Shown here in pieces: positions 1 to 34,031 of a DNA stretch of 37,478 bases (within the stretch, counting starts at the first letter, position 1; each line of letters opens with the position of its first letter). The DNA comes from Hydrurus foetidus (lineage: Eukaryota): the NCBI GenBank assembly GCA_900617105.1, contig UYFQ01000230.1, positions 1 through 37,478 of the forward strand, written 5' to 3'. The translations under genes and the position numbers were made by a program. The notes below the pieces were generated by a model, which saw only the letters and a list, made by a program, of their open reading frames with translations, ran no database searches and was not told the origin of the DNA.

Positions 1-66
1 CTCGGAGCCACAGCGACAACTTTATTTTCGGACAATTTGGAGGCTCAGGATGCAGAGACAAGATTT
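1..66 (+). CDS. gag: 5' fragment of Copia-1 gag, upstream of the Gypsy insertion (partial)
   Basis: Frame LGATATTLFSDNLEAQDAETRF is open and joins in frame to SFADVARLIDIM at 7565 when 67-7564 is removed. Confidence 0.75.
63..66. repeat. Target site duplication ATTT (left copy)
   Basis: ATTT at 63-66 and at 7561-7564 flank the two LTRs. Confidence 0.8.
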
Positions 67-375
67 TGTTATAGTTTCCACTATGTATATATAACACGTA
101 CGTACGCACGTTGCTCACAACCACAAGTTTTTCATTCCAGTTTTCTGTTTCTGATTCTTAGATTGCTTCAACTCGTGATGCACTCGTTGCCTGTCAATCT
201 CACTCACTTTTCATCGCTTTAAAACTTTAACTGAAACACCTATACCGATACGGCTTCTCTTAGCCATCTCCGCTATTCTGGACTGACTTTCTTGTCAGCT
301 AGAAGATCTTCGTCTCCTGCTTTCTTGCAGAACGAATCACCGCTTTTAGTCACTTCACGACGTGCAACCGGCATA
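67..375 (+). repeat. 5' LTR of Gypsy element (309 bp, TG...TA)
   Basis: Identical by inspection to 7252-7560; starts TGTTATAG, ends GGCATA. Confidence 0.95.
86..94 (+). promoter_or_regulatory. Possible TATA box in LTR (TATATATAA)
   Basis: Motif match only; unusually close to the LTR start. Confidence 0.3.
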
Positions 376-632
376 AAAGTACTTTTCTCGTTCACGCACT
401 TCGCGCAATCGAAAGACGTTTTCCTCGGAAAGTTATTCAGTATCTTATCTCGTAGAGGCCTCGATCAGTTTGCACAATTACTCTACTCTGAGAAGATTCG
501 GACATAAAGCTACGCAAGCTCTGAAAAAGCAAGAGTCAAGAAGTTTTTGTGTAAGTCTTTGTTTCCAATCTGAAACTTCCGTCTACAGCCGATCTACAAA
601 TTCTCTTCTCCTATACTCTGGCTAGAAATTCC

Positions 633-2288
633 ATGTCGCTAGAGGATTCTACCAACTCTAAGGAGAACAACCCAGCAGTGGATAGTCAACTAGACATGAT
701 GCTCATGTTCAAACAGTTCATGAAGTCAAGCCAAGAAGACAGAATCCGCAACTCAAATGAGTTTACAGAGCTCCGATCAGCGATAGCCTTGATATCCAGA
801 GGATCCCCGCAGATTTCACTCGATTCACCGATTCCAGATCGAGCCAATGCCAATAGAAGATCTTCAATGTTCTTCGGCAGTCCGTTACCAAAGGAACGCG
901 AATCGACGACGAAAACGCAAATACAAGTACTGCAAGCTGACATCATCTACGATAAAGAATTGAAAGTCAGCTCACTGGAAGGACTGCAGTATCTTGCAAA
1001 GCAGCTACAACTCTTTACCTCCAAGTATCCTGGTCGCGAAGTCAGGACTGCACATATGGTTGCCTTCTCGCTGCGCCCTCACGTTATTGCTTCATGGAAC
1101 TCTTACTGCTTCAAGGAATCTCAAATCGCGGGATTGGAAGTAAAAGAAATTATGGTTGAGGACTGGTTATCCCTATCCAATGGTCAAGTTCAAGAAATCC
1201 TCGTTGAGTCAGCTCGACCTCGGACGCGAGAACTCTATTCTCGCGAGCTCGTACTCTTCCTTGGCAAAGGCATTCCCCAGACTCCGACAATCAACCCTGA
1301 AAACTTTTCGTCCACGTTCTATGCGCCTCTGATGAAATCCCTCAATGACCTCCTCCATCTCCACGATTTGCTATCTGAAGAGACAAGCAATCACAGCAAC
1401 AACAAATCCAAAATGCCTGTCCCTGGATATGGAACTCGTGATAGCCCTGGCCAGACTCAACTCTGGATCATATCACTCGGCAATCAGAAGGAAGCTGTTC
1501 TTCAATGGCTCGGCAAAGATGAGCTATCCAAGCACAAGGCCCTAGCTCCCGCAGTCAAGTTTATTCACTCTAAACTCATGGAAGGTCGTCTAAACAGCGA
1601 GGCTCGGCAAGACTTTGATTCCAAGCTCACACCCATTCGCTATGAAGACATCAGACATATGCAAGGAGAATCAAACACAAGGCAACAGACGAACTTCAGT
1701 TCGAAGCCACAGAGCAAGCAACAGAACAAGATACCTTTCTCAAGAAACCATCGTCCACTTGATCATTTCTCTGCCATTCATTCCGCTGCACCAGATTCTT
1801 CATATCGTACCAGCTGTGAAGACGACAACTACTTTGATTACAATGAAGATGGTGACAACACGATCTACGATGAAGACAACAACGACTTCACCGATGACCT
1901 CGAGTATTCAACCATCTACAAAACGCCGACAAACTTTCAACACGACAATGAGCTATCCGCACTAGAGAATCTATCTTCCCGCAGCGCAATTGCGAGTACA
2001 TTTCGCGGTTACTGTAGCGAGCTGTTCGTCTTTGGTTCTTGCCACCGTCGGGACTCAGGATGTACATTAGATCACACTTCATCTGGACAAGAGAAATGCA
2101 TACACTCCTTCAATCTACTCGCGAAGAGAGACCTGACTCAGCATGGACAACTTCCGGCATTCAGCAACGCTACCACACCAGAACGATCAGGATCATTTAA
2201 ACCATCGTTTCCTACCTCTCGCCAGGATAGCCGAATTCCGAAACCTTACGTATCCAATCAAGGCATGCGCTCACTCAAGAACAAGTAG
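633..2288 (+). CDS. gag: Gypsy Gag-like protein with CCCH-type zinc finger
   Basis: 551-aa ORF directly after the 5' LTR and leader; C-x8-C-x6-C-x3-H at 2013-2075; ends in TAG in frame with the protease. Confidence 0.85.
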   Translation: MSLEDSTNSKENNPAVDSQLDMMLMFKQFMKSSQEDRIRNSNEFTELRSAIALISRGSPQISLDSPIPDRANANRRSSMFFGSPLPKERESTTKTQIQVLQADIIYDKELKVSSLEGLQYLAKQLQLFTSKYPGREVRTAHMVAFSLRPHVIASWNSYCFKESQIAGLEVKEIMVEDWLSLSNGQVQEILVESARPRTRELYSRELVLFLGKGIPQTPTINPENFSSTFYAPLMKSLNDLLHLHDLLSEETSNHSNNKSKMPVPGYGTRDSPGQTQLWIISLGNQKEAVLQWLGKDELSKHKALAPAVKFIHSKLMEGRLNSEARQDFDSKLTPIRYEDIRHMQGESNTRQQTNFSSKPQSKQQNKIPFSRNHRPLDHFSAIHSAAPDSSYRTSCEDDNYFDYNEDGDNTIYDEDNNDFTDDLEYSTIYKTPTNFQHDNELSALENLSSRSAIASTFRGYCSELFVFGSCHRRDSGCTLDHTSSGQEKCIHSFNLLAKRDLTQHGQLPAFSNATTPERSGSFKPSFPTSRQDSRIPKPYVSNQGMRSLKNK

Positions 2289-2855
2289 GAGTTTGCAGGA
2301 CCTTCTCTCACTGCAATGCAAGGAGAAGATCATCCTGCCGACAACCCCAAAATATTTGACCCAGACAATACCATATCGACGGCTCTCATTGCTCAACTAG
2401 CGTCTGCAATCTCAGTTGATCCAAAAGACCTGTGCCACCCGTTTATTCGGCCAGGAACAATACGAAGTCCCGACGGATCCTCTACAATTATTTTCGATAA
2501 AGGTCTACTCGACACTGGCGCCCAAGGCAGCAACTTCATTTCAGAAGACCTGTACTCGCGTCTGCCGGCCATCATTACCAATTTATCGAGACCCATCGAT
2601 CGTGTTGTTCGACTAGGAGACGCACGACACCTCTTCATACAACTTGAGGTACCACTAAATGTCTCTATTACGGACTTCAATGGACAAGACCATGAACACA
2701 CTCTATGGTACAGCGTCCTTAAAGAACTTAGCCATGACATCATCATAGGACTTGTTGATCTCATCGGCCCTTTCTACACTCTGTTCGAAAACTCAGTTGC
2801 CACATCACGCCATACGCCAAGTCTCGTGATCTCGGTAGTCACCTATCCGCCTTGA
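2289..2855 (+). CDS. Retropepsin-type aspartic protease, in frame with gag after the UAG
   Basis: LLDTGAQGSNFIS active-site motif and downstream DIIIG motif; 2289-2315 is open in frame up to ATG 2316. Confidence 0.88.
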   Translation, partial: EFAGPSLTAMQGEDHPADNPKIFDPDNTISTALIAQLASAISVDPKDLCHPFIRPGTIRSPDGSSTIIFDKGLLDTGAQGSNFISEDLYSRLPAIITNLSRPIDRVVRLGDARHLFIQLEVPLNVSITDFNGQDHEHTLWYSVLKELSHDIIIGLVDLIGPFYTLFENSVATSRHTPSLVISVVTYPP

Positions 2856-5800
2856 CAACGACAATTATGACCTTAGCAACCAACGATCCAACTGACCATA
2901 TGATGCAGCAAACTTCTGAGGCAATCAAGTTGGAACACACTGTCTACAAGGATCGGAAACGTTCAATCCAATCCAGCGTGAATACAACTATTTCTCTCCT
3001 TGCTCTACAAGATGGCTCAACAGTTGAAACACTCCATCATCCTTTGCACGGCAACGTCTATGCTGACGAACGCATGGAAACAAGATACGACATCTTGACC
3101 TCACAATTATGCACCCCAACCCCAGGTCTTGTCATGACACCGTGGTCCAATCTGATTGATGCACTCGCTCCCGAGGAACTCGATACGCCTGACCCTACCA
3201 GTTTCCCGGATGACATACTCGGATATCTCGCTATGACTCCTGAAAGCACACGCGCAATTTACCGCGTCGATCTCGAGACCCATATCACAACTGAAATGCG
3301 AGAGGCTTGCCCGCATATAGTAGACCTACTGACATCAGAACTAGCATACGATGTGTTCGTACCGAGCACCTGGACTGGCATACGCATGGATCCATATCAT
3401 CTCGATACCAAACCCGGCCTTCCAGATCATATCAAAGCACATGCTCGACCAGTACGTGAAGCACTCTTTGAAGATGCTAGGACAGAATTCAATAGAATGC
3501 GGACATATTTCTACGAGAAGTCAACGTCACCAATTGCTTCGCCGCTAGTAATTGCTCCCAAAGCCACAGCCCCTTTCATTCGTATCTGTGGCGACTACCG
3601 TCCAATTAATCCTTACGTGAGCATCCCACAAGAACCGATCCCTCATGTGCAGCAATCACTCGCCAAAGCTGCTGGATGGAATGTATTCGTTGATCTAGAC
3701 ATGACCAACTCGTTCCATCAAATTCCAATCGACATTGCCAGCTCTAATCTCCTATCAGTATCTACACCGTGGGGCTTATTCAGACCAAAATTTTTGCCAG
3801 AGGGTGTCGGACCTGCGTCAGGCATACTGCAGTCAGTAGTACGCCGAGTATTTTCTGACTTCGAACAGTGGATCATCGTAATCTTCGACAACTTTCTGAT
3901 TCTGGCGTCCGACTATGCAGACGCTGCAGACAAGCTGGAGAAAGTGCTCATACGTTGTCAATTGCATCGGCTCGTACTCAAGATGAAAAAATCATGGATC
4001 GGCACCACTGTAGTCACATTCTTTGGCTACGAAGTGAGACCCGGATCTTGGAGTCTCTCCAACAGCCGTAAAGAGGCAATATCCAATATGATCTTCCCAG
4101 CAAACCAGAAGCAAATGCAAAGCTTCCTAGGTGCCGCCAACTTCTTTCACACTCATATCCCCAATTACGCACAGTGGGCATCGTGCTTGTATGAATGCAC
4201 TACAGCATCGTTTGATTGGAACCCCTCGACATGGACCAATGACTACAAAGATCTCTTCGCTATCTTCAAAACCGCGATAACAAATTCTGCAACACTCTAC
4301 TTCCCGGACTACTCTCTTCCATGGATCATTCGCTCAGATTCTTCGGATAACGCAGTCGGTGCAGTCCTGTTCCAGGAGTTCACGGACACGTCAAACAATA
4401 TTATTCATCAGCCAATAGCATTTGCATCACACAAGTACTCAGGCGCCGCCATCAATTGGGACACGTTCAAACAAGAGGCTTACGCTCTCTACTTTGCAGT
4501 GACACAGTTCTCATACTACTTACGTGGCAAACCGTTCGTCATCGAGACCGATCACCGCAACCTAGTTTGGATAGAATCGAGTTTAGTTCCTATTGTTATT
4601 CGCTGGCGAGTACTGTTGCAGAGCTACGTATTCGATATCAAACACATACCTGGCAAGCAGAAGATGGTCGCCGACTGGCTGTCGCGAATGCACCCTATAC
4701 CCGTTCCACTTCTCACAGCTATCACAGACTACCCACCTTTAAGCGAGATGTTCGCTGCTGTCCACGGCAATCGCTCCCTGCATCACGGTGCAAAGCGTAC
4801 GTATACTAAGTTGTGTTCCCGCTACCCTGGTCATGGCATTCCGATACGTGTTATACAAGACCTTGTATTTGAATGTCCAATATGTCAGAAGGATCGCATA
4901 CCTTTACAGCCCATCCCTCACGCTGAAGCACGGCAAACACTGATGCATCATGCTCGCACTATCGGAATGGATCACGTCACAGTGACACCCGCCGATGAGG
5001 ATGGCTATATCGGACTCCTGCTTGTAGTAGAATTTGACACGAAGTTCCCCCAAGCATATCCTGTCAGAGACTACGGTGCACTCACTGTCGCCACCGTGCT
5101 ATTCAAGCACTATTGTACGTTCGGTACATACAACGCTATCATATCTGATCCTAGCAGTGCCTTCACTGCAACAGTCGTGCAACATCTCAACACATGGTTC
5201 GGCATACCGCATCATATCTCTGTAGTTGGACGACATGAGTCAAACGGAACCGAACATGTCAATGCTCTATTCATCGGCCACCTCCGTCGACTCGTCCACG
5301 ATCAACGGATGACTAACCGCTGGGCCTCGGACACAATACTCCCCCTTATCAATCATGCCATGTCGACGATGCCAAATTCCGATGCCTATTCACCGCATGA
5401 TCTCAAATTTGGAACAGTCGATAAGCAGCACTTTCGGTTACCGACAGCTCTGCCTCCTGGAAATTCATACGCGGAATTCATCAATACATTGAATGAGAAT
5501 TTGTCAACAATACGTGCCATTACAAGCCAATATCAACTCGAACTACGTACCAGGCGACAACTTGAGAATCCCGCTGCCAGTCAAAACCTGTATCAAGCCG
5601 GTGATCTCATACTATGGAATCCGAGAGAACATTCGAAGTCCTTCAGGTCGTCAAAACTAGCTCCAAAATTACTGGGACCCTTCGTTGTGTTGACTCAGAA
5701 GAAGAACGATGTTACGTGTGAGCATATACAATCAAAAGAAATTCGTGTGTTTCACGCATCTCGCATCTCTCCCTACATTGGTTCACACACATCAGCAGCA

Positions 5801-6028
5801 GATGCTAGTCTACTGGATTCAGTGGAATATATTGTCGAGTCAATAACAGCACATCGAGGATCATGGACATCACTTACCTCACTCGAGTTCCTTGTACACT
5901 GGCTTGGATATCCAACCGAAGACGACACTTGGGAACCATACCGCAATCTTCGTCATCTTGATGCCCTCCACGAGTACCTGCGAAAAAATAATAAAGAGAG
6001 TCTAATACCAAATATCCACCGGAACTAG
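2852..6028 (+). CDS. pol: Pol: reverse transcriptase, RNase H, integrase, GPF motif and chromodomain (frameshifted relative to PR)
   Basis: RT: RICGDYRPIN, DLDMTNSFHQI, LPEG, IFDN, FFGY. RH: SDSS, EAYA, TDHRNL, ADWLSR. IN: H..H..CPIC, MDH, SDP, TEH. LLGPF. Chromodomain YIVESI...FLVHWLGY...TWEP. Confidence 0.95.
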   Translation: MTTTIMTLATNDPTDHMMQQTSEAIKLEHTVYKDRKRSIQSSVNTTISLLALQDGSTVETLHHPLHGNVYADERMETRYDILTSQLCTPTPGLVMTPWSNLIDALAPEELDTPDPTSFPDDILGYLAMTPESTRAIYRVDLETHITTEMREACPHIVDLLTSELAYDVFVPSTWTGIRMDPYHLDTKPGLPDHIKAHARPVREALFEDARTEFNRMRTYFYEKSTSPIASPLVIAPKATAPFIRICGDYRPINPYVSIPQEPIPHVQQSLAKAAGWNVFVDLDMTNSFHQIPIDIASSNLLSVSTPWGLFRPKFLPEGVGPASGILQSVVRRVFSDFEQWIIVIFDNFLILASDYADAADKLEKVLIRCQLHRLVLKMKKSWIGTTVVTFFGYEVRPGSWSLSNSRKEAISNMIFPANQKQMQSFLGAANFFHTHIPNYAQWASCLYECTTASFDWNPSTWTNDYKDLFAIFKTAITNSATLYFPDYSLPWIIRSDSSDNAVGAVLFQEFTDTSNNIIHQPIAFASHKYSGAAINWDTFKQEAYALYFAVTQFSYYLRGKPFVIETDHRNLVWIESSLVPIVIRWRVLLQSYVFDIKHIPGKQKMVADWLSRMHPIPVPLLTAITDYPPLSEMFAAVHGNRSLHHGAKRTYTKLCSRYPGHGIPIRVIQDLVFECPICQKDRIPLQPIPHAEARQTLMHHARTIGMDHVTVTPADEDGYIGLLLVVEFDTKFPQAYPVRDYGALTVATVLFKHYCTFGTYNAIISDPSSAFTATVVQHLNTWFGIPHHISVVGRHESNGTEHVNALFIGHLRRLVHDQRMTNRWASDTILPLINHAMSTMPNSDAYSPHDLKFGTVDKQHFRLPTALPPGNSYAEFINTLNENLSTIRAITSQYQLELRTRRQLENPAASQNLYQAGDLILWNPREHSKSFRSSKLAPKLLGPFVVLTQKKNDVTCEHIQSKEIRVFHASRISPYIGSHTSAADASLLDSVEYIVESITAHRGSWTSLTSLEFLVHWLGYPTEDDTWEPYRNLRHLDALHEYLRKNNKESLIPNIHRN

Positions 6029-6161
6029 TTTCTCCACGATGTATACTGATCGTGGCCAGGTATCACAAACTGCTGACCGCTCAATGTAACATGGTACGAG
6101 ACCACTATGTGAGGACGTCCTTAGAAAGTGGGTAACCCCTGCAAAAACAACTATTTAAAAA

Positions 6162-6842
6162 TTATTTCCCCAAAGGGATCGAACCCGAGGGGGGAGTCGA
6201 ACCCGGAGGTTGAGATGCCTTCTTCCACCCCTTCTTGTACAAATCAAAGAAGAAACAATACGTCAAATCAGCCATTTTATCTGCCAAGTTCTCCACAGTA
6301 AATTCAACACTACCAGCAGTACATGCATTGTCAAATAATCTCACTCCGTTTTCATCACTCCGTATACTGACTGCGTGATCATGCCTGCTGTACCCTGTCG
6401 CTTTCTTGCTATAAGTCTCCACTTTGTCCTCCACGCCTTCCGCTTTCCCTATCCTCTTTAACAAAGCTTTGTGTTCTGCGTTCTTCAATTTTGATTTGCC
6501 GAACAAAATGTATATACCCTTGTTCGCCAGCACTGTCTTGATCAATGATTTCACGCACCAGCACCTGTCTTTGTCCACTCTGCCAATCACCCTACGGAAC
6601 TCGAACTTCAACTTTCTGCCCATCTTCCTATTCTGTACACACACATGCTTCAAAAAATTCAACGCGTCATGCGATGATGCTCCGTAATGTAGTTTACTTG
6701 TGACATCGACAGCAATTGAATTCTTGTACACATCACCAGCATCACCACCCAATCGAATCCAATCCTGCTTTTCGCTCGACAATGGCAATACCATTGCTGC
6801 TGCCAGGCATAAGTTCTTTGATGGCCTGAAGTCGTCTGTCAT
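6162..6842 (-). CDS. Antisense accessory ORF (226 aa), putative papain-like (C39-like) cysteine peptidase fold
   Basis: Open ORF between pol and the 3' LTR; NLC(12)LAAA, GASSHD, GIYILFG, H(156)AVSI, LFD(171)N pattern. Function inferred from motifs only. Confidence 0.6.
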   Translation of the reverse strand: MTDDFRPSKNLCLAAAMVLPLSSEKQDWIRLGGDAGDVYKNSIAVDVTSKLHYGASSHDALNFLKHVCVQNRKMGRKLKFEFRRVIGRVDKDRCWCVKSLIKTVLANKGIYILFGKSKLKNAEHKALLKRIGKAEGVEDKVETYSKKATGYSRHDHAVSIRSDENGVRLFDNACTAGSVEFTVENLADKMADLTYCFFFDLYKKGWKKASQPPGSTPPSGSIPLGK

Positions 6843-7239
6843 GTTCTATACTTGTGTTGTGCTTGTCATGTAGTATATATCCTGCACCATCACACAGCCA
6901 TCAATTTATCAATGGTTATCACGGCGGCACCATCAATTTTAAAAAAATCTTTTAGAGCCACACATGCCGCCCCACACGACATGCGGAGACTCCGGTTTCG
7001 CTTTTCCAAGGACTCACCATGTGTACACAGTTTTGTGGTAGAGCGCCTATCCTTCCCACCACATTTTGGCGCGCCAAGAGGTCTGCGGTTCAAACCCAGC
7101 TTTTTCATCCACCTATCGTTTTCGCAATTACTGCACTATGTAGCTTCTTTAGCGGTACATTTCTTCATGCGAAGTCTCAGAGATGTAGCAGAGGACTTTG
7201 TATTCATTTATTTGACATCCACAATTTGACATTTCACAT

Positions 7240-7251
7240 GGAGAGGGGTGG
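7240..7251 (+). other. Polypurine tract (GGAGAGGGGTGG)
   Basis: Purine-rich tract immediately 5' of the 3' LTR. Confidence 0.88.
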
Positions 7252-7560
7252 TGTTATAGTTTCCACTATGTATATATAACACGTACGTACGCACGTTGCT
7301 CACAACCACAAGTTTTTCATTCCAGTTTTCTGTTTCTGATTCTTAGATTGCTTCAACTCGTGATGCACTCGTTGCCTGTCAATCTCACTCACTTTTCATC
7401 GCTTTAAAACTTTAACTGAAACACCTATACCGATACGGCTTCTCTTAGCCATCTCCGCTATTCTGGACTGACTTTCTTGTCAGCTAGAAGATCTTCGTCT
7501 CCTGCTTTCTTGCAGAACGAATCACCGCTTTTAGTCACTTCACGACGTGCAACCGGCATA
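7252..7560 (+). repeat. 3' LTR of Gypsy element
   Basis: Identical to 67-375; preceded by the PPT and followed by the ATTT TSD. Confidence 0.95.
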
Positions 7561-7564
7561 ATTT
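7561..7564. repeat. Target site duplication ATTT (right copy)
   Basis: Matches 63-66. Confidence 0.8.
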
Positions 7565-9487
7565 TCCTTCGCCGATGTGGCAAGGCTCATCGACATCATG
7601 TCTGCTAAGATCCAACAGCCTCCACCGTTGGTCTCCCAACCGAAATCAACAGTTGGATCTGCCTCTATTCCAAGTGCTTCAACGCCCAAGGCTTCTTCTA
7701 TCTTATCGGTGCCCATATCAGAATACTTGGATACCACCTCTGCGCAATCGAAATTCTTCTTTTCGATGCCCAAGTTTTCCAACTCTGGGAAGGACAACCG
7801 CGACAACATGGAAATGTTCATGGTCGCTCTAGGTGAATGTAAACTTCTTACATTAGCCAAATGCGATCGTGAGTTACCAGTCATTACTGCTCGGAACCCT
7901 GGAGGGTATTCACCTAGGTCACTGGTATTAGCAGAAGAAGGATTGTATGATGTCATCCCAGCTGATGACATCTACAAAAGATTACACGATTTGGATCGAT
8001 TATTAGTTATCCTCAATATGGTTACTGGGAAAGATCTACATTATTTGATCAAGCGTGTGATTGCCGACAACGATGCGGTCTTATGGTTCAAGACTATCTA
8101 CGATCACATCAACGGCACAAAGAACAGCGACATCAGGAAGGCAACGGATCAGCTCCACTCCCTGAAGCTTAAGTCCACACAAACCATTCAGGAGAATGTG
8201 GCAACCATCGAAGAGGCCTTCAGAGTCCTCAAAGTCGCAAGTGGCGTGCTCGTCACTGATGATCAAAAGCTTTATCATCTACAGGAAAAGCTGGAGCATG
8301 ATGCAAGATTCAGCGTCTTATCAATCATGGCCTCATCAAAGACATCAAAGGCATCCTATGACGACACCATCAAATACCTTGTGCTTCTTGATCCTGCCCC
8401 AGCGGTAGTTCACAAGATGGCTTCCCTTACTCCAACCTTGGAGCTGTGCAGACGTCACATCGCTGGCCCATGTACCAACGGTTCCTCATGCAAGTATTCA
8501 CATGCAGCAGCGCCGCCAAACAAGGGAGCACCATCTGACAAGAAGCCCAACAAGAACCCGCCTCCTCTCAAGAAAGATCAGAAGACTCCACAGAAGTTTC
8601 CTTTCAAGAAACCAATCATCGTGTCAGATTCCCATCGATCACTTGTTGGTTATCCCAAAGGAGTTGCAACGGCAAAGAACCCAGCTGGATACTCATTGAA
8701 CCAACTTACAACCATCAGGACTTTGCAATCTGCTGATGTTGACGGCTGGACTACAGGAGATCCTCAGTATTTCAATGGCGATGGGTCGAGCAACCATATC
8801 GATCGGTTCAATGTTCTTCGCTTCAAGGAACAATCAACGACATCCATTGCTGAGTTCCCAGAGTTCTACCACCTTGAGCCCTTTCCAAGACTTCGTGAGA
8901 TCAGACGTCACCTGTTCACAATGCTCAACTCGGTCGAGAAGTATAACAGATTCGCCGGTTCATCTCCCAGCGACTACGATGGATCTCCTACTGATCCTCT
9001 CTCCGGAATTGTTGTCAGCTTCCAAGACCTGACAGCAGCTGAACCAAGGATGGTACACATCTTGGTGGCATTCACATGGCTTTCAGAGAGCCCAACCATC
9101 TCGAGATCCGTGAAAATCCGAGAAGATGTTCGTACAGCAGACAAACGGCTTATGAGGATGCTATACAAAATCGGAAACAGATTCTTGAACGCCGACGTGT
9201 TGATTCCAGACAGGGAGGGTTCCGAAAATTTCAGTTATATGAACTTCAACCCTCTCTCCGACAAATTCTATCATTCCGACGACTATGAGTTCTACCAATC
9301 AAACATGAGAAACGTGGAAAAGTACTTTGTTGCTATCAGATACATCATGGAGCATCCTGACATTCCATGGCGACTTCTACGTATTCTCTCTTTGGCTATT
9401 ATCTACGACTTTATGTCATTCTGCGCTCACTACTTCATGATGCAGTGCAATTGCAAGCTGACGAATCCCAGACAAGAGCAAATGTGA
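7565..9487 (+). CDS. gag: Copia-1 Gag continuation with CCCH finger, followed by an unknown domain; frameshifted in the first repeat unit
   Basis: 636-aa ORF from 7577; helical capsid-like region (DQLHSLK...EEAFRVL...DDQKLYHL); C-x7-C-x5-C-x3-H at 8447-8503; homologous to Copia-2 Gag. Confidence 0.8.
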   Translation, partial: SFADVARLIDIMSAKIQQPPPLVSQPKSTVGSASIPSASTPKASSILSVPISEYLDTTSAQSKFFFSMPKFSNSGKDNRDNMEMFMVALGECKLLTLAKCDRELPVITARNPGGYSPRSLVLAEEGLYDVIPADDIYKRLHDLDRLLVILNMVTGKDLHYLIKRVIADNDAVLWFKTIYDHINGTKNSDIRKATDQLHSLKLKSTQTIQENVATIEEAFRVLKVASGVLVTDDQKLYHLQEKLEHDARFSVLSIMASSKTSKASYDDTIKYLVLLDPAPAVVHKMASLTPTLELCRRHIAGPCTNGSSCKYSHAAAPPNKGAPSDKKPNKNPPPLKKDQKTPQKFPFKKPIIVSDSHRSLVGYPKGVATAKNPAGYSLNQLTTIRTLQSADVDGWTTGDPQYFNGDGSSNHIDRFNVLRFKEQSTTSIAEFPEFYHLEPFPRLREIRRHLFTMLNSVEKYNRFAGSSPSDYDGSPTDPLSGIVVSFQDLTAAEPRMVHILVAFTWLSESPTISRSVKIREDVRTADKRLMRMLYKIGNRFLNADVLIPDREGSENFSYMNFNPLSDKFYHSDDYEFYQSNMRNVEKYFVAIRYIMEHPDIPWRLLRILSLAIIYDFMSFCAHYFMMQCNCKLTNPRQEQM

Positions 9488-12400
9488 TATTCACATTGAA
9501 TACATATCGATCCAACGCACAGTTCTTGGATCAGATAGTCTTCCACGATGCTTTTTCTGCAGTCATCAACAACATCAAACCAATGCCTCCAGCACCACAG
9601 TCTTATGCATTGCAGACAAGCCCAATCACGACATCATATTCACGTATGAGTGCCATCAACAGAGAGGACCTGCTTAGTGAGACGACTGACCACACTGAAG
9701 AAAATGACATTCCATGGCGACTTCTACGTATTCTCTCTTTGGCTATTATCTACGACTTTATGTCATTCTGCGCTCAACTACTTCATGATGCAGTGCAAAT
9801 GCAAGCTGACGAATCCCAGACAAGAGCAAATGTGATATTCACATTGAATACATATCGATCCAACGCACAGTTCTTGGATCAGATAGTCTTCCACGATGCT
9901 TTTTCTGCAGTCATCAACAACATCAAACCAATGCCTCCAGCACCACAGTCTTATGCATTGCAGACAAGCCCAATCACGACATCATATTCACGTATGAGTG
10001 CCATCAACAGAGAGGACCTGCTTAGTGAGACGACTGACCACACTGAAGAAAATGACATTCCATGGCGACTTCTACGTATTCTCTCTTTGGCTATTATCTA
10101 CGACTTTATGTCATTCTGCGCTCACTACTTCATGATGCAGTGCAAATGCAAGCTGACGAATCCCAGACAAGAGCAAATGTGATATTCACATTGAATACAT
10201 ATCGATCCAACGCACAGTTCTTGGATCAGATAGTCTTCCACGATGCTTTTTCTGCAGTCATCAACAACATCAAACCAATGCCTCCAGCACCACAGTCTTA
10301 TGCATTGCAGACAAGCCCAATCACGACATCATATTCACGTATGAGTGCCATCAACAGAGAGGACCTGCTTAGTGAGACGACTGACCACACTGAAGAAAAT
10401 GACATTCCATGGCGACTTCTACGTATTCTCTCTTTGGCTATTATCTACGACTTTATGTCATTCTGCGCTCAACTACTTCATGATGCAGTGCAATTGCAAG
10501 CTGACGAATCCCAGACAAGAGCAAATGTGATATTCACATTGAATACATATCGATCCAACGCACAGTTCTTGGATCAGATAGTCTTCCACGATGCTTTTTC
10601 TGCAGTCATCAACAACATCAAACCAATGCCTCCAGCACCACAGTCTTATGCATTGCAGACAAGCCCAATCACGACATCATATTCACGTATGAGTGCCATC
10701 AACAGAGAGGACCTGCTTAGTGAGACGACTGACCACACTGAAGAAAATGACATTCCATGGCGACTTCTACGTATTCTCTCTTTGGCTATTATCTACGACT
10801 TTATGTCATTCTGCGCTCAACTACTTCATGATGCAGTGCAAATGCAAGCTGACGAATCCCAGACAAGAGCAAATGTGATATTCACATTGAATACATATCG
10901 ATCCAACGCACAGTTCTTGGATCAGATAGTCTTCCACGATGCTTTTTCTGCAGTCATCAACAACATCAAACCAATGCCTCCAGCACCACAGTCTTATGCA
11001 TTGCAGACAAGCCCAATCACGACATCATATTCACGTATGAGTGCCATCAACAGAGAGGACCTGCTTAGTGAGACGACTGACCACACTGAAGAAAATGACA
11101 TTCCATGGCGACTTCTACGTATTCTCTCTTTGGCTATTATCTACGACTTTATGTCATTCTGCGCTCAACTACTTCATGATGCAGTGCAAATGCAAGCTGA
11201 CGAATCCCAGACAAGAGCAAATGTGATATTCACATTGAATACATATCGATCCAACGCACAGTTCTTGGATCAGATAGTCTTCCACGATGCTTTTTCTGCA
11301 ATCATCAACAACATCAAACCAATGCCTCCAGCACCACAGTCTTATGCATTGCAGACAAGCCCAATCACGACATCATATTCACGTATGAGTGCCATCAACA
11401 GAGAGGACCTGCTTAGTGAGACGACTGACCACACTGAAGAAAATGACATTCCATGGCGACTTCTACGTATTCTCTCTTTGGCTATTATCTACGACTTTAT
11501 GTCATTCTGCGCTCAACTACTTCATGATGCAGTGCAAATGCAAGCTGACGAATCCCAGACAAGAGCAAATGTGATATTCACATTGAATACATATCGATCC
11601 AACGCACAGTTCTTGGATCAGATAGTCTTCCACGATGCTTTTTCTGCAGTCATCAACAACATCAAACCAATGCCTCCAGCACCACAGTCTTATGCATTGC
11701 AGACAAGCCCAATCACGACATCATATTCACGTATGAGTGCCATCAACAGAGAGGACCTGCTTAGTGAGACGACTGACCACACTGAAGAAAATGACATTCC
11801 ATGGCGACTTCTACGTATTCTCTCTTTGGCTATTATCTACGACTTTATGTCATTCTGCGCTCAACTACTTCATGATGCAGTGCAAATGCAAGCTGACGAA
11901 TCCCAGACAAGAGCAAATGTGATATTCACATTGAATACATATCGATCCAACGCACAGTTCTTGGATCAGATAGTCTTCCACGATGCTTTTTCTGCAGTCA
12001 TCAACAACATCAAACCAATGCCTCCAGCACCACAGTCTTATGCATTGCAGACAAGCCCAATCACGACATCATATTCACGTATGAGTGCCATCAACAGAGA
12101 GGACCTGCTTAGTGAGACGACTGACCACACTGAAGAAAATGACATTCCATGGCGACTTCTACGTATTCTCTCTTTGGCTATTATCTACGACTTTATGTCA
12201 TTCTGCGCTCAACTACTTCATGATGCAGTGCAAATGCAAGCTGACGAATCCCAGACAAGAGCAAATGTGATATTCACATTGAATACATATCGATCCAACG
12301 CACAGTTCTTGGATCAGATAGTCTTCCACGATGCTTTTTCTGCAGTCATCAACAACATCAAACCAATGCCTCCAGCACCACAGTCTTATGCATTGCAGAC

Positions 12401-15400
12401 AAGCCCAATCACGACATCATATTCACGTATGAGTGCCATCAACAGAGAGGACCTGCTTAGTGAGACGACTGACCACACTGAAGAAAATGACATTCCATGG
12501 CGACTTCTACGTATTCTCTCTTTGGCTATTATCTACGACTTTATGTCATTCTGCGCTCAACTACTTCATGATGCAGTGCAAATGCAAGCTGACGAATCCC
12601 AGACAAGAGCAAATGTGATATTCACATTGAATACATATCGATCCAACGCACAGTTCTTGGATCAGATAGTCTTCCACGATGCTTTTTCTGCAGTCATCAA
12701 CAACATCAAACCAATGCCTCCAGCACCACAGTCTTATGCATTGCAGACAAGCCCAATCACGACATCATATTCACGTATGAGTGCCATCAACAGAGAGGAC
12801 CTGCTTAGTGAGACGACTGACCACACTGAAGAAAATGACATTCCATGGCGACTTCTACGTATTCTCTCTTTGGCTATTATCTACGACTTTATGTCATTCT
12901 GCGCTCACTACTTCATGATGCAGTGCAAATGCAAGCTGACGAATCCCAGACAAGAGCAAATGTGATATTCACATTGAATACATATCGATCCAACGCACAG
13001 TTCTTGGATCAGATAGTCTTCCACGATGCTTTTTCTGCAGTCATCAACAACATCAAACCAATGCCTCCAGCACCACAGTCTTATGCATTGCAGACAAGCC
13101 CAATCACGACATCATATTCACGTATGAGTGCCATCAACAGAGAGGACCTGCTTAGTGAGACGACTGACCACACTGAAGAAAATGACATTCCATGGCGACT
13201 TCTACGTATTCTCTCTTTGGCTATTATCTACGACTTTATGTCATTCTGCGCTCAACTACTTCATGATGCAGTGCAAATGCAAGCTGACGAATCCCAGACA
13301 AGAGCAAATGTGATATTCACATTGAATACATATCGATCCAACGCACAGTTCTTGGATCAGATAGTCTTCCACGATGCTTTTTCTGCAGTCATCAACAACA
13401 TCAAACCAATGCCTCCAGCACCACAGTCTTATGCATTGCAGACAAGCCCAATCACGACATCATATTCACGTATGAGTGCCATCAACAGAGAGGACCTGCT
13501 TAGTGAGACGACTGACCACACTGAAGAAAATGACATTCCATGGCGACTTCTACGTATTCTCTCTTTGGCTATTATCTACGACTTTATGTCATTCTGCGCT
13601 CAACTACTTCATGATGCAGTGCAAATGCAAGCTGACGAATCCCAGACAAGAGCAAATGTGATATTCACATTGAATACATATCGATCCAACGCACAGTTCT
13701 TGGATCAGATAGTCTTCCACGATGCTTTTTCTGCAGTCATCAACAACATCAAACCAATGCCTCCAGCACCACAGTCTTATGCATTGCAGACAAGCCCAAT
13801 CACGACATCATATTCACGTATGAGTGCCATCAACAGAGAGGACCTGCTTAGTGAGACGACTGACCACACTGAAGAAAATGACATTCCATGGCGACTTCTA
13901 CGTATTCTCTCTTTGGCTATTATCTACGACTTTATGTCATTCTGAGCTCAACTACTTCATGATGCAGTGCAAATGCAAGCTGACGAATCCCAGACAAGAG
14001 CAAATGTGATATTCACATTGAATACATATCGATCCAACGCACAGTTCTTGGATCAGATAGTCTTCCACGATGCTTTTCTGCAGTCATCAACAACATCAAA
14101 CCAATGCCTCCAGCACCACAGTCTTATGCATTGCAGACAAGCCCAATCACGACATCATATTCACGTATGAGTGCCATCAACAGAGAGGACCTGCTTAGTG
14201 AGACGACTGACCACACTGAAGAAAATGACATTCCATGGCGACTTCTACGTATTCTCTCTTTGGCTATTATCTACGACTTTATGTCATTCTGAGCTCAACT
14301 ACTTCATGATGCAGTGCAAATGCAAGCTGACGAATCCCAGACAAGAGCAAATGTGATATTCACATTGAATACATATCGATCCAACGCACAGTTCTTGGAT
14401 CAGATAGTCTTCCACGATGCTTTTTCTGCAGTCATCAACAACATCAAACCAATGCCTCCAGCACCACAGTCTTATGCATTGCAGACAAGCCCAATCACGA
14501 CATCATATTCACGTATGAGTGCCATCAACAGAGAGGACCTGCTTAGTGAGACGACTGACCACACTGAAGAAAATGACATTCCATGGCGACTTCTACGTAT
14601 TCTCTCTTTGGCTATTATCTACGACTTTATGTCATTCTGCGCTCAACTACTTCATGATGCAGTGCAAATGCAAGCTGACGAATCCCAGACAAGAGCAAAT
14701 GTGATATTCACATTGAATACATATCGATCCAACGCACAGTTCTTGGATCAGATAGTCTTCCACGATGCTTTTTCTGCAGTCATCAACAACATCAAACCAA
14801 TGCCTCCAGCACCACAGTCTTATGCATTGCAGACAAGCCCAATCACGACATCATATTCACGTATGAGTGCCATCAACAGAGAGGACCTGCTTAGTGAGAC
14901 GACTGACCACACTGAAGAAAATGACATTCCATGGCGACTTCTACGTATTCTCTCTTTGGCTATTATCTACGACTTTATGTCATTCTGCGCTCAACTACTT
15001 CATGATGCAGTGCAAATGCAAGCTGACGAATCCCAGACAAGAGCAAATGTGATATTCACATTGAATACATATCGATCCAACGCACAGTTCTTGGATCAGA
15101 TAGTCTTCCACGATGCTTTTTCTGCAGTCATCAACAACATCAAACCAATGCCTCCAGCACCACAGTCTTATGCATTGCAGACAAGCCCAATCACGACATC
15201 ATATTCACGTATGAGTGCCATCAACAGAGAGGACCTGCTTAGTGAGACGACTGACCACACTGAAGAAAATGACATTCCATGGCGACTTCTACGTATTCTC
15301 TCTTTGGCTATTATCTACGACTTTATGTCATTCTGCGCTCAACTACTTCATGATGCAGTGCAAATGCAAGCTGACGAATCCCAGACAAGAGCAAATGTGA

Positions 15401-21400: not shown

Positions 21401-21876
21401 AACCAATGCCTCCAGCACCACAGTCTTATGCATTGCAGACAAGCCCAATCACGACATCATATTCACGTATGAGTGCCATCAACAGAGAGGACCTGCTTAG
21501 TGAGACGACTGACCACACTGAAGAAAATGACATTCCATGGCGACTTCTACGTATTCTCTCTTTGGCTATTATCTACGACTTTATGTCATTCTGCGCTCAA
21601 CTACTTCGTGATGCAGTGCAAATGCAAGCTGACGAATCCCAGACAAGAGCAAATGTGATATTCACATTGAATACATATCGATCCAACGCACAGTTCTTGG
21701 ATCAGATAGTCTTCCACGATGCTTTTTCTGCAATCATCAACAACATCAAACCAATGCCTCCAGCACCACAGTCTTATGCATTGCAGACAAGCCCAATCAC
21801 GACATCATATTCACGTATGAGTGCCATCAACAGAGAGGACCTGCTCAGTGAGACGACTGACCACACTGAAGAAAAT
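9359..21876 (+). repeat. Tandem array of 36 near-identical 348-bp units derived from the Copia-1 coding region
   Basis: Unit GACATTCCATGG...GAAGAAAAT. 12518 bp = 36x348 minus 10 single-base deletions. Unit = 116 codons, giving repetitive ORFs up to 967 aa. Confidence 0.97.
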
Positions 21877-22233
21877 GATGATGACAATGATGATGATGAT
21901 GACGATGAATACAGTGACGATGAATCAGAGGGTGATGACATAGACATGACTCCACCGGGATCATCATCTGATCATCACAGGAGATGCCAAGAAGACCTGA
22001 CCCGATACAATCACCCATACCTTATGGGTCATAAACGCAGTCTATGGGCGTCAATCCACACTGATACCAAGCGTCCAGCACGCAGGAAGATTACCAAAAC
22101 ATCAGATGACAATGAGTTCAAGGAGACACCGGGAACATCCAGCTCAATGCATGCTCCACCAATGCTTCAAGACCATCTCTTGTTAATGATGATATTGTTC
22201 CAGCACTTAAGACTGCTGGTGTACCTCGTATGA
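21877..22233 (+). pseudogene. Copia-1 polyprotein acidic/disordered linker after the array, with a frameshift near 22100-22170
   Basis: DDDNDDDDDDEYSDDESE tract continues the array frame; the -1 frame (…STNASRPSLVNDDIVPALK…) is open into the ORF at 22230. Confidence 0.6.
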
Positions 22234-24272: not shown

Positions 24273-24744
24273 CCGTTATAATCATCAATATGTAGCTAGG
24301 AATATCTCATACGTAAGTACATATATGCAGTCCGTAACTACATACAATGATCACTTTAAGTCGCTTCCTCAATGCTTATCGTATCATGTGTAGTGTCATT
24401 GTTGTGGGTTCATGACCGCATATTTAGTATAGATTCCAGATTTTATGGTATGAGGGTACGAGAACTTTTCCATGTGTGATGTATGGTTTGAAGTATATCT
24501 CGTCGCTCGTCAACGTAGGCTTAAATCTACGAGTTCAAATTCAAATCTGAAATGGATGACGAATGAGATCTTATTGACTTGCGGCAGGTAGAATGATGTT
24601 CATCATGCAACGTCTTTTCAATTCGCATGTGTTTAGTTTCTAATTCTTAACGAATATTCGATACTCAACTCCCAAACTTCTTCGCCTGGTCGCTTGTGCT
24701 ATTGGCCTCCTGCGACCTCATTGATCGTCCCTGATCAACTGACA
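24228..24744 (+). repeat. Copia-2 5' LTR, full length (517 bp)
   Basis: Terminal inverted repeats TGTCAG...CTGACA, directly followed by a TGG PBS and gag. Confidence 0.82.
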
Positions 24745-24753
24745 TGGTAGCGA
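24745..24753 (+). other. Primer binding site TGGTAGCGA, initiator tRNA-Met-like; repeated at 27834, 30905, 33975, 37333
   Basis: TGG immediately after the LTR-terminal CA; TGGTAGC matches the 3' end GCUACCA typical of eukaryotic tRNAiMet. Confidence 0.75.
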
Positions 24754-24801
24754 TTGAAGCCTGAAGACTTCAAAGATAAGTTACCCGATTCCCCGACCAA
24801 A

Positions 24802-27833: not shown

Positions 27834-27890
27834 TGGTAGCGATTGAAGCCTGAAGACTTCAAAGATAAGTTACCCGATTCCCCGACCAAA

Positions 27891-30904: not shown

Positions 30905-30961
30905 TGGTAGCGATTGAAGCCTGAAGACTTCAAAGATAAGTTACCCGATTCCCCGACCAAA

Positions 30962-33974: not shown

Positions 33975-34031
33975 TGGTAGCGATTGAAGCCTGAAGACTT
34001 CAAAGATAAGTTACCCGATTCCCCGACCAAA

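What the first reader, a model, noticed from the sequence alone, without database searches (positions are those of the whole stretch)
3881..3892. Reverse transcriptase with IFDN in place of the catalytic YxDD in a freshly transposed element
Seen: motif C reads WIIV-IFDN-FLIL (ATC TTC GAC AAC) where Gypsy RTs have V-Y-x-D-D-I-L-I. Motif A Asp (DLDMTNSF), the RNase H and integrase catalytic residues and the whole 1058-aa ORF are intact, and the LTRs are identical. Tyr-to-Ile needs two nucleotide changes and Asp-to-Asn another, which is hard to explain as post-insertion decay. Established: YxDD is nearly invariant in RTs, and its last Asp is the more tolerant one in Ty1 RT in vitro. Inference: a lineage of active LTR retrotransposons with a re-wired polymerase active site, possibly linked to the unusual priming.
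Basis: partly seen in the sequence, partly recalled or inferred. Interest (0 to 1): 0.85.

Follow-up and report, generated by a model that had tools for sequence, protein, structure and literature searches.

The report
Retrotransposon clade with IFDN polymerase motif
A very large, old family of jumping genes found in fresh-water and sediment samples carries asparagine where reverse transcriptases normally have their third catalytic aspartate, and it likely still copies itself, which would make it a natural test case for what that residue does.

Summary
Window 3881-3892 (ATC TTC GAC AAC) encodes I344-F345-D346-N347 of a 1058-aa pol ORF, and HMMER aligns it without gaps to YLDD of Ty3 RT.

It is not copy-specific decay. 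Every relative above about 36% RT identity has D-N:
- 215 of 215 aligned clade proteins, window included
- 150 of 150 best hits of an index-free phmmer search of 1.84 billion representatives
- 78 of 80 metagenome loci; the other two read IFDH and IFKI

Six outgroups at 24-28% identity read Y-x-D-D. All four codons vary synonymously. RT dN/dS was at most 0.081 in all 14 unsaturated pairs. The clade signature is aliphatic-aromatic-D-N.

The element is a 7.5-kb Ty3/gypsy-type chromodomain LTR retrotransposon. Its LTRs are identical over 310 nt and it has a 4-5 bp target duplication. It sits nested in a high-copy repeat. This copy has a one-base frameshift between protease and RT that 6 of 6 other runs lack.

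Natural YVDN is already published for nematode BEL/Pao elements. This scan has also noted D-to-N swaps in other RT families on other DNA. Ty3 D214N keeps polymerase activity but kills transposition.

Catalytic activity here is inferred. The proposed link to priming found no support.

The parts
63..66 (.). Left copy of the target-site duplication (ATTT, or ATTTT if base 67 is counted); the right copy is at 7561-7564(5)
   Evidence: An empty-site joint 62->7561 with 5 ambiguous letters appears in 4 of 4 runs laid. The letters were checked.
67..376 (+). 5' LTR (starts TGTT)
   Evidence: 310 of 310 nt identical to 7252-7561 at offset 7185.
633..2288 (+). gag-like ORF, 551 aa, with a C-x8-C-x6-C-x3-H finger at 2013-2078. 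It ends in TAG, in frame with the protease ATG at 2316.
   Evidence: Relatives P0042 and P0046 (1805-1811 aa) align across it as fused Gag-Pol. No Pfam hit.
2316..2813 (+). Protease part of Pol (DTG at 2511-2519)
   Evidence: tblastn of P0002 aa 1-166 gives 98.8% identity in frame 3. DTG located. No Pfam hit.
2813..2816 (+). Copy-specific one-base frameshift that separates protease from RT
   Evidence: P0002 switches from frame 3 to frame 2 here. A one-base length difference after 2814 is seen in 6 of 6 runs whose contigs cross it: X5, X9 and X19, and X10, X15 and X18.
2816..6028 (+). RT - RNase H - integrase - chromodomain part of Pol (listed ORF 2852-6028, 1058 aa)
   Evidence: Pfam hits: RVT_1 aa 266-395, RT_RNaseH 486-592, Integrase_H2C2 632-682 (weak), rve 706-794 (weak), SH3_Tf2-1 917-975 (weak), Chromo 993-1044. 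Ty3 RT is the best PDB hit, E 1e-33.
3692..3700 (+). RT motif A, D281-L-D283. D283 is the catalytic Asp. D281 is a clade-specific acidic residue.
   Evidence: D283 in 215 of 215. Position 281 is D in 209, N in 5 and E in 1, against K/K/V/C/C/S in the outgroups.
3797..3805 (+). RT motif B, P316-E317-G318 (Ty3 has PFG)
   Evidence: E317 in 215 of 215. It is also present in one YLDD outgroup, P0232.
3881..3892 (+). RT motif C, I344-F345-D346-N347, in place of YxDD
4307..4627 (+). RNase H domain (D496, E542, D567; D608 lies just beyond it)
   Evidence: Pfam. These residues are invariant in 142 of 142.
4745..5233 (+). Integrase zinc-binding and catalytic core (D707, D766; E801 lies just beyond it)
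   Evidence: Weak Pfam hits. D, D and E are present in 142, 142 and 141 of 142.
5828..5983 (+). C-terminal chromodomain
   Evidence: Pfam Chromo, E 3.5e-10.
6162..6842 (-). Conserved antisense ORF (226 aa) between pol and the 3' LTR; function unknown
   Evidence: 27 protein clusters at 50-97% identity. Invariant Cys, His and Asp columns. No Pfam hit. The fold model is unusable, pLDDT 45.5.
7240..7251 (+). Polypurine tract GGAGAGGGGTGG, abutting the 3' LTR
   Evidence: Read from the sequence.
7252..7561 (+). 3' LTR
   Evidence: Identical to 67-376.

Best explanation
IFDN at 3881-3892 is the clade-wide form of RT motif C in a large, old branch of Ty3/gypsy-type LTR retrotransposons, and purifying selection keeps it. 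The enzyme is predicted to polymerise with two metal-binding carboxylates, D283 of motif A and D346 of motif C. N347 likely plays the supporting, non-chelating role assigned to the last Asp of Ty3 RT.

Shown here:
- The motif sits at the YxDD position.
- D-N is invariant in the clade, while the nearest canonical relatives found have Y-x-D-D.
- The Tyr position is always aliphatic or another non-aromatic residue. The 'x' position is aromatic (F, W, Y or H) in 215 of 215 aligned members.
- The other polymerase, RNase H and integrase catalytic residues are invariant.
- The RT evolves under strong constraint.
- The window's copy has identical LTRs and a target duplication.

Inferred:
- The clade's RT is catalytically active and drives its own retrotransposition.
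- Clade-specific changes (Asp at motif A -2, aromatic at x, P312, E317) compensate for the processivity or transposition defect that D-to-N causes in Ty3 and Ty1.
- This copy, which has a protease-RT frameshift, was either made by enzymes of sibling copies or was damaged during or after its insertion. An assembly error would give the same picture.
For: Position:
- Ungapped HMMER alignment to Ty3 YLDD and CaMV YVDD.
- Hairpin tip in a pLDDT 86.8 model.
- RT folds are the best structural matches.

Fixation:
- 120 of 121 sequences (the window's protein plus the 120 hits listed out of 611) read IFDN and 1 reads IYDN.
- A second search from a distant member gave 84 of 84 clade hits at 36-63% identity with x-x-D-N, and 6 of 6 outgroups with D-D. 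E-values jump from 9e-52 to 4e-19 between the two groups.
- In the MAFFT alignment, D346 and N347 are present in 215 of 215.
- phmmer without a word index over 1.84 billion representatives gave 150 of 150 listed hits (E <= 4e-61, 40-81% identity) with D-N. 380 representatives have E <= 1e-30.
- 60 of 80 metagenome loci were caught only by a motif-A pattern. Of these, 58 read [IL]FDN, 1 reads IFDH and 1 reads IFKI.

Selection:
- Codons in 75 sequences: Ile ATC 36, ATA 18, ATT 17 (plus 4 Leu codons); Phe TTC 35, TTT 40; Asp GAC 47, GAT 28; Asn AAC 35, AAT 39 (plus 1 CAT).
- NG86 dN/dS is 0 to 0.081, median 0.023, in all 14 pairs with dS 0.05-1.5.
- Among near-identical copies in 4 runs, the RT core shows 12 synonymous against 5 non-synonymous differences.

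Intact machinery:
- K237, R244, D283 and K380 are at 100% and F288 at 98.6%.
- RNase H DEDD and integrase DDE are present in 141-142 of 142.
- 59 of 80 loci have an RT-bearing open frame of at least 1000 aa.

Recent mobility:
- LTRs identical over 310 nt.
- Empty-site joint in 4 of 4 runs.
- Near-identical copies in 20 runs of 8 studies.

Precedent in print:
- Ty3 D214N and D214E keep polymerase activity with reduced processivity, while D151 and D213 are the proposed metal ligands (PMC5371799, section 3.1 passage).
- Ty1 D211N polymerises in vitro (PMC2148107, abstract and passages).
- Nematode BEL/Pao elements naturally carry YVDN (passages in PMC554778 and PMC9094657).
Against: - No enzyme of this clade has been assayed. 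Activity rests on conservation alone.
- In both yeast models the same substitution abolishes transposition. For Ty3 all mutants were lethal in vivo. For Ty1 D211N, kpol fell 223-fold, Mn2+ was preferred and transposition was lost. Function in vivo therefore needs compensation that I did not show.
- The proposed compensators are not strict. Position 281 is N in 5 of 215 members (the IWDN subgroup). PEG also occurs in a YLDD outgroup.
- The window's own copy carries a protease-RT frameshift.
- The 14 dN/dS pairs are not independent, and 2749 of 2775 pairs were saturated.
- Two of the three homologue searches use shared words or motif patterns, which favours look-alikes. Only the best 150 of the unbiased search could be read, so the exact D-D/D-N boundary was not seen.
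Confidence: 0.82

Rival explanations
1. Copy-specific decay. IFDN arose by mutation in this copy after or during insertion, and the copy was moved by enzymes from YxDD-bearing siblings.
For: This copy does carry one private defect, the frameshift near 2814.
Against: - No YxDD sibling exists at any distance above about 36% identity: 215 of 215, 150 of 150, and 78 of 80 loci carry D-N.
- Contigs of 4 further runs show no change in the D and N codons. The only change in the motif is one depth-3 contig with F->L.
Confidence: 0.01
2. Clade-wide dead polymerase. The RT domain is kept for a structural role such as particle assembly or a dimer partner, and DNA synthesis is done by another element's RT.
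For: - D-to-N at this position is lethal for Ty3 and Ty1 transposition.
- RVT_1 Pfam scores are low for the clade, 35-41 bits against 134 bits for outgroup P0232.
Against: - The residues needed only for catalysis and dNTP binding stay invariant: D283, D346, K237, R244 and K380 at 100%, and F288 at 98.6%.
- dN/dS is about 0.02 over the whole RT.
- The clade spans at least 150 clusters at the 50% level, in samples from fresh water, sediment and ice. Lasting dependence on a helper across all of this is unlikely.
- No helper was seen.
Confidence: 0.06
3. Active, but with no re-wiring. The last Asp is simply dispensable in this RT background, Asn became fixed once in the ancestor, and the accompanying clade-specific residues are unrelated drift on a long stem branch.
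For: - Ty3 D214N and D214E and Ty1 D211N retain polymerase activity without any second change.
- The stem branch is long, 1.26 substitutions per site, so many clade-specific residues are expected by chance.
- D281 and PEG are not strictly coupled to D-N.
Against: - Asn never reverts to Asp in 215 + 150 + 78 sequences, although this is a single G/A change. That points to selection for Asn itself.
- The 'x' residue is aromatic in 215 of 215 aligned members, and the Tyr position is never aromatic.
- The yeast single mutants do not transpose.
Confidence: 0.25

Closest known systems
Ty3 of Saccharomyces cerevisiae (Metaviridae); RT structure PDB 4ol8
   Same: - It is the best solved relative by sequence (E 1e-33), and the predicted fold is an RT-RNase H fold.
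- It is also an LTR element with PR-RT-RH-IN order.
- In Ty3 the last Asp (D214) is not a proposed metal ligand, and D214N keeps polymerase activity (PMC5371799 passage).
   Different: - Ty3 reads Y-L-D-D, the window reads I-F-D-N.
- Ty3 has T at motif A -2 and PFG in motif B (alignment).
- Ty3 D214N cannot transpose, whereas the D-N clade is large and under constraint.
- About 25% RT identity.
Nematode BEL/Pao (Belpaoviridae) elements Cer7-Cer12, Cer13 and Atlas virus, with YVDN
   Same: - A natural, lineage-wide Asp-to-Asn change at the last position of YxDD in LTR retroelements (passages in PMC554778 and PMC9094657).
- The biochemical consequence was stated as undetermined in 2005.
   Different: - It is another retroelement family.
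- The Tyr is kept and x is Val. Here the Tyr position is aliphatic and x is aromatic.
- I did not align these sequences. The comparison rests on the papers' text.
Ty1 RT D211N laboratory mutant
   Same: The same residue change. The enzyme still polymerises in vitro (PMC2148107 abstract).
   Different: - It is an engineered single change in a Ty1/copia RT.
- kpol drops 223-fold, Mn2+ is preferred over Mg2+, and transposition is lost. Transposition is partly rescued by RNase H-domain suppressors.
GDNQ motif C of Mononegavirales L polymerases
   Same: A palm-domain polymerase family whose motif C naturally ends in D-N rather than D-D. This is recalled. Only a search listing of 42 papers holding 'GDNQ', 'Mononegavirales' and 'polymerase' was seen.
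   Different: These are RNA-dependent RNA polymerases and are not homologous at the family level to LTR-element RTs. Nothing about them was tested here.
Cigr-1 clade of Ty3/gypsy with YLDN
   Same: Reported by another agent as a Ty3/gypsy lineage that carries Asn at the same position.
   Different: - That note describes toggling between Asp and Asn with the Tyr retained. Here Asn is invariant and the Tyr is lost.
- Not verified by me. 'YLDN' gave no retroelement paper.

Membership tests
Ty3/gypsy-type LTR retrotransposons (Metaviridae) | Direct long terminal repeats with a short target-site duplication and a polypurine tract | tested here: met
   310-nt identical LTRs. A 4-5 bp duplication defined by the empty-site joint. 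PPT at 7240-7251.
Ty3/gypsy-type LTR retrotransposons (Metaviridae) | Pol domain order PR - RT - RNase H - IN | tested here: met
   DTG at 2511-2519. Pfam RVT_1 at aa 266-395, then RT_RNaseH at 486-592, then Integrase_H2C2/rve at 632-794.
Ty3/gypsy-type LTR retrotransposons (Metaviridae) | RT groups with Ty3/gypsy RTs and not with copia, BEL/Pao or retroviral RTs | tested here: inconclusive
   Ty3 is the best PDB sequence hit (E 1e-33), ahead of CaMV (2e-20), foamy virus (2e-15) and MLV (1e-14). No tree with reference copia or BEL/Pao RTs could be built, because no reference sequences were on hand.
Chromoviruses (chromodomain-bearing Ty3/gypsy) | Chromodomain at the C-terminus of integrase | tested here: met
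   Pfam Chromo at aa 993-1044, E 3.5e-10. It is present in the window's subgroup only. Other clade members carry EEP, NUDIX or SET domains, or none.
Chromoviruses (chromodomain-bearing Ty3/gypsy) | RT phylogeny within the chromovirus branch | not tested
Canonical three-aspartate (F/Y-x-D-D) reverse transcriptases | Motif C with aromatic-x-Asp-Asp | tested here: not met
   I-F-D-N aligned to Y-L-D-D. N347 is present in 215 of 215 clade members.
Canonical three-aspartate (F/Y-x-D-D) reverse transcriptases | Motif A Asp and first motif C Asp (the two metal ligands) | tested here: met
   D283 and D346 are present in 215 of 215.
Nematode BEL/Pao YVDN elements | BEL/Pao-type RT with a Y-V-D-N motif | tested here: not met
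   The motif is I-F-D-N, and the Tyr position is never aromatic in 215 members. The nearest solved relative is Ty3. It works alike at the last residue only.

The most novel reading that the evidence does not exclude
An ancient, widespread clade of autonomous LTR retrotransposons completes full retrotransposition with a two-carboxylate RT active site. The lost third Asp is offset by a fixed set of changes: an aromatic residue moved from the Tyr position to the 'x' position, an extra Asp two residues before the motif A Asp, and P312 and E317. This would be nature's own suppressor set for the lethal Ty3 D214N and Ty1 D211N phenotype. It would probably come with altered metal preference, speed or fidelity.
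Probability: 0.35. Interest if true: 0.75.

Novelty: new variant of a known kind. Interest (0 to 1): 0.6.

Why it matters
The last Asp of YxDD is taught as part of an invariant catalytic triad. In the two best-studied LTR-retrotransposon enzymes, changing it to Asn leaves a working but impaired polymerase and kills transposition.

A clade with at least 150 clusters at the 50% identity level (380 representatives at E <= 1e-30) has kept Asn without a single reversion. It therefore offers many natural, diverged sequences in which the cost of that change has apparently been paid.

Comparing these enzymes with N-to-D and aromatic-swap versions could show what the third carboxylate does: A-site metal binding, pyrophosphate release or processivity. 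It could also show which second-site residues replace it.

There is a practical point for annotation. Pipelines and people who use YxDD as a test for a 'live' RT will wrongly call this whole clade dead. Its RVT_1 Pfam scores are already marginal, 35-41 bits against a 29.6-bit cut-off.

Tried and rejected
- Own-genome search: no genome is held for this window, so copy number and sibling copies in the same assembly could not be counted.
- Priming:
  - No inverted repeat within 60-460.
  - No ungapped duplex of 8 bp or more, G:U allowed, between the LTR and the 50 nt around its 3' end.
  - No tRNA gene in the window or in 31 loci.
  - No Rfam match at E <= 1 in 1-7700.
  - The primer therefore remains unknown, and a link between IFDN and priming was neither supported nor excluded.
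- LTR and PBS comparison across loci failed. Most terminal repeats found in 20 loci are contig-end overlaps of 107-138 nt and not full LTRs.
- Expression: no RNA holder is listed.
- ESM Atlas look-alikes gave only generic RT/RNase H clusters.
- The Biopython dN/dS run timed out. It was replaced by my own Nei-Gojobori code.
- The antisense-ORF structure model was too poor to search with (pLDDT 45.5).
- The primary Ty3 mutagenesis paper (PMC546138) is not held. I relied on the review passage in PMC5371799.
- Literature searches for the motif in an RT context found nothing:
  - 'IFDN' plus 'reverse transcriptase': 0 papers.
  - IFDNF, VIFDN, IFDNL, IYDNF, IWDN anywhere: 49 papers, and none of the 15 listed concerns retroelements.
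  - YXDD plus asparagine plus retrotransposon: only the Ty1 paper.
  - The diatom GyDi paper (PMC2806351, passages only) does not mention the motif. I could not test whether GyDi elements belong to this clade.
- A-to-I editing of AAC back to an Asp codon was considered and rejected on logic. The edited RNA is also the template, so new copies would carry G.
- Model coordinates are not exposed, so the D281-N347 distance could not be measured.
Full report
**What is at the coordinates**

Window 3881-3892 reads ATC TTC GAC AAC. This gives I344-F345-D346-N347 in the context WIIVIFDNFLILA of an ORF at 2852-6028 (+), 1058 aa.

Pfam finds these domains in order:
- RVT_1, aa 266-395
- RT_RNaseH, aa 486-592
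- weak integrase zinc-finger and core hits, aa 632-794
- a weak Tf2-type SH3 hit
- a chromodomain, aa 993-1044

phmmer against all PDB sequences gives Ty3 RT (4ol8) as best hit, E 1e-33. It aligns VIFDNFLILA with VYLDDILIFS without a gap. CaMV RT VYVDDILVFS falls at the same place.

An AlphaFold2 model of aa 170-600, built on a 46-row alignment, has pLDDT 86.8. It places the four residues at the tip of a beta-hairpin. Its best Foldseek matches are CaMV, MMLV and Ty3 RTs.

**The element**

- Identical 310-nt LTRs lie at 67-376 and 7252-7561.
- A polypurine tract at 7240-7251 abuts the 3' LTR.
- Contigs of 4 of 4 public runs contain a joint 62->7561 that skips the element, with 5 ambiguous letters. 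This defines a 4-5 bp target duplication (ATTT or ATTTT).
- In run X5 the flanks have 20-40 times the word depth of the element. The element is therefore nested in a high-copy repeat, and the 'empty sites' may be paralogues and not alleles.
- Upstream of pol lie a 551-aa gag-like ORF (633-2288) with a CCCH-type finger, then a TAG, and then in the same frame a protease ORF (from 2316, DTG at 2511-2519).
- Between pol and the 3' LTR lies a 226-aa ORF on the minus strand.

**A defect in this copy**

The 98%-identical relative P0002 (1239 aa, a cluster of 41 members) aligns to 2316-2813 in one frame and to 2816-6025 in another. All 6 runs whose contigs cross the place differ from the window by one base in length after 2814. 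These are X5, X9 and X19 and X10, X15 and X18. That difference gives the continuous PR-RT frame.

The window's copy therefore has a private frameshift, or an assembly error, that uncouples RT from protease and Gag.

**Is IFDN private or shared?**

Four independent look-ups agree.

1. Word-indexed search with the RT region. 611 proteins had E <= 1e-5 and the best 120 (61-98% identity) were listed. With the window's own protein that makes 121 sequences: 120 read IFDN and 1 reads IYDN.

2. The same search started from a distant member (L075, 42% identical to the window). It returned 90 new proteins.
   - 84 proteins at 36-63% identity to the window all read x-x-D-N: IFDN 53, VFDN 8, IWDN 7, LFDN 4, IYDN 4, AFDN 2, MFDN 2, and QFDN, IHDN, LHDN and AYDN 1 each.
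   - E-values then jump from 9e-52 to 4e-19.
   - The 6 proteins beyond the jump (24-28% identity) all read D-D: YQDD, YLDD, PY-DD twice, SY-DD and one gapped.

3. 80 metagenome loci at 41-67% identity: IFDN 74, LFDN 4, IFDH 1 (L068) and IFKI in L069, which was counted twice. The scan used one motif-A and one motif-C peptide pattern. 60 of the 80 loci contain only the motif-A pattern, so they were not selected on motif C. Of these, 58 read [IL]FDN, 1 reads IFDH and 1 reads IFKI.

4. phmmer with no word index over 1.84 billion representatives. 36,292 hits had E <= 1e-3, 15,010 had E <= 1e-10 and 380 had E <= 1e-30. All 150 listed hits (E <= 4e-61, 40-81% identity) carry D-N: IFDN 107, LFDN 18, IYDN 6, IWDN 4, IHDN 3, MFDN 3, LHDN 3, VFDN 2, and IMDN, QFDN, CFDN and AHDN 1 each.

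No Y-x-D-D sequence was seen inside the clade. The ranks below 150 could not be read, so the exact boundary was not seen.

**The clade signature**

I made a MAFFT alignment of 215 in-group RT domains (the window plus 214 proteins) and 6 outgroups. 15 of the 235 fetched proteins were dropped because they were shorter than 550 aa or covered fewer than 200 RT residues.

| Position | In-group (215) | Outgroups (6) |
|---|---|---|
| 344 (Tyr position) | I 196, V 8, L 5, A 3, M 2, Q 1; never aromatic | Y in all |
| 345 ('x') | F 200, W 7, Y 6, H 2 | Q or L |
| 346 | D 215 | D in all |
| 347 | N 215 | D in all |
| 281 (motif A -2) | D 209, N 5, E 1 | K, K, V, C, C, S |
| 312 | P 215 | Y, W or F |
| 317 | E 215 | also E in one YLDD outgroup |

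Residues I recall as dNTP-binding or catalytic in HIV-1 RT are kept: K237, R244, D283 and K380 at 100%, and F288 (the steric-gate position) at 98.6%. The RNase H D-E-D-D and integrase D-D-E residues are present in 141-142 of 142 full-length members.

A FastTree tree puts a stem of 1.26 substitutions per site under the clade. The median root-to-tip depth inside it is 1.5. The tree was rooted on the six outgroups, so monophyly is not an independent result.

**Selection**

- All four motif codons turn over synonymously in 75 sequences:
  - Ile: ATC 36, ATA 18, ATT 17
  - Phe: TTC 35, TTT 40
  - Asp: GAC 47, GAT 28
  - Asn: AAC 35, AAT 39
- Nei-Gojobori dN/dS over the 281-codon RT domain was 0 to 0.081, median 0.023, in all 14 pairs with dS between 0.05 and 1.5. 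2749 of the 2775 pairs were saturated, and the 14 pairs are not independent.
- Among near-identical copies in four more runs, the RT core shows 12 synonymous and 5 non-synonymous differences. The only change inside the motif is F345L in one contig of depth 3.
- 59 of 80 loci have an RT-bearing open frame of at least 1000 aa, and many of the rest are cut by contig ends.

**How it most likely works**

In Ty3 RT, the closest solved relative, D151 and D213 are the proposed Mg2+ ligands. D214N and D214E keep polymerase activity with reduced processivity, yet every active-site mutant is lethal for transposition (PMC5371799, section 3.1 passage).

In Ty1 RT, D211N keeps in-vitro polymerisation, but kpol falls 223-fold and Mn2+ is preferred. 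Transposition is lost and is partly restored by RNase H-domain suppressors (PMC2148107, abstract and passages).

I therefore infer that the clade's RT catalyses DNA synthesis with D283 and D346 as metal ligands. N347 would act as a hydrogen-bonding residue that helps the A-site metal, the primer end or pyrophosphate release. I also infer that some of the clade-specific residues offset the processivity or transposition cost. The main candidates are the aromatic at 345 and Asp 281, which by my recollection of RT palm geometry lies on the strand next to the hairpin.

None of this was measured. Position 281 is Asn in the IWDN subgroup, so the coupling is not strict.

**Rivals**

- Copy-specific decay is excluded by the counts above.
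- A clade-wide dead RT that depends on a helper is unlikely, given the invariance of residues needed only for catalysis and the breadth of the clade. It is not formally excluded.
- Asn might be simply tolerated, with the other changes unrelated drift on a long branch. This remains a serious rival to 're-wiring' and I give it about 0.25.

**What is known**

- Natural YVDN in nematode BEL/Pao elements (Cer7-12, Cer13-like, Atlas virus) is in print. Its biochemical meaning was described as undetermined (passages in PMC554778 and PMC9094657).
- This scan's earlier notes report Asn at the same position in Cigr-1 Ty3/gypsy elements, retron RTs, DGR RTs and group-II-like RTs on other DNA. These are unchecked AI notes. 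One of them suggested looking for a paired residue swap, which I did (position 281).
- Motif C ending in D-N is also the rule in Mononegavirales L polymerases. This is recalled; only a search listing was seen.
- For the present clade and its aliphatic-aromatic-D-N form, my text searches found nothing in an RT context. Supplements and alignment figures were not searched.

**Priming**

The 30 nt after the 5' LTR do not begin with TGG. I found no LTR-to-PBS complementarity of 8 bp or more, no tRNA gene and no Rfam match. The primer is unknown, and a link to IFDN is unsupported.

**Verdict**

This is a real, lineage-defining variant of the RT active site in a very large and old clade of Ty3/gypsy-type elements. 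It is most likely functional, and it is related in kind to a published nematode case. I rate it a new variant of a known kind, with interest about 0.6.

Noticed in passing
window 6162-6842 (-): A 226-aa antisense ORF between pol and the 3' LTR is a conserved protein. 27 clusters match at 50-97% identity, most of them about 200-226 aa, on contigs up to 7.3 kb. Invariant columns include C68, H156, D163, D171, N172 and C196. It has no Pfam family, and the AlphaFold2 model was unusable (pLDDT 45.5). It is probably an accessory gene of this element subfamily.
   Followed up: partly
window 2286-2288 and 2316: gag ends in TAG, in frame with the protease ATG 27 nt downstream. An X5 contig over 2176-2420 has no differences, so the stop is shared by other copies. 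More distant relatives (P0042, P0046) have one fused 1805-1811-aa Gag-Pol. This suggests stop-codon read-through or separate initiation in this subfamily.
   Followed up: partly
proteins P0148, P0084, P0190, P0219 (clade members): Members of the D-N clade carry different extra domains in Pol: an EEP endonuclease at the C-terminus (P0148) or the N-terminus (P0084), a NUDIX domain between RNase H and integrase (P0190), and a SET domain at the same place (P0219). The chromodomain is confined to the window's subgroup.
   Followed up: partly
window 9358-21878: A 348-bp unit is repeated 36 times in tandem at 99% identity. It is in frame (116 codons), so long ORFs run through it. It starts inside the 3' end of the CCCH-finger ORF 7577-9487 of the repeat that hosts the element. 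It could be a real amplification or an assembly artefact.
   Followed up: no
window 23647-37475: About five tandem copies of a 3.07-3.09 kb unit (one spacing is 3.36 kb), each with ORFs of 499 plus 242 aa or 170 plus 613 aa that have no Pfam family. The ORF at 22896-24272 just upstream has a retroviral-polymerase SH3-like domain (E 8.6e-8).
   Followed up: no
window 5381-5385: Contigs of X1, X5 and X9 carry 6 extra bases (2 codons, in frame) in the integrase C-terminal region compared with the window's copy.
   Followed up: no
whole record: Other pieces filed under the same 'genome' in this scan were described as Brevundimonas-like bacterial DNA. The source is therefore probably a mixed or metagenomic assembly, and the eukaryotic host of the element is unidentified.
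   Followed up: no
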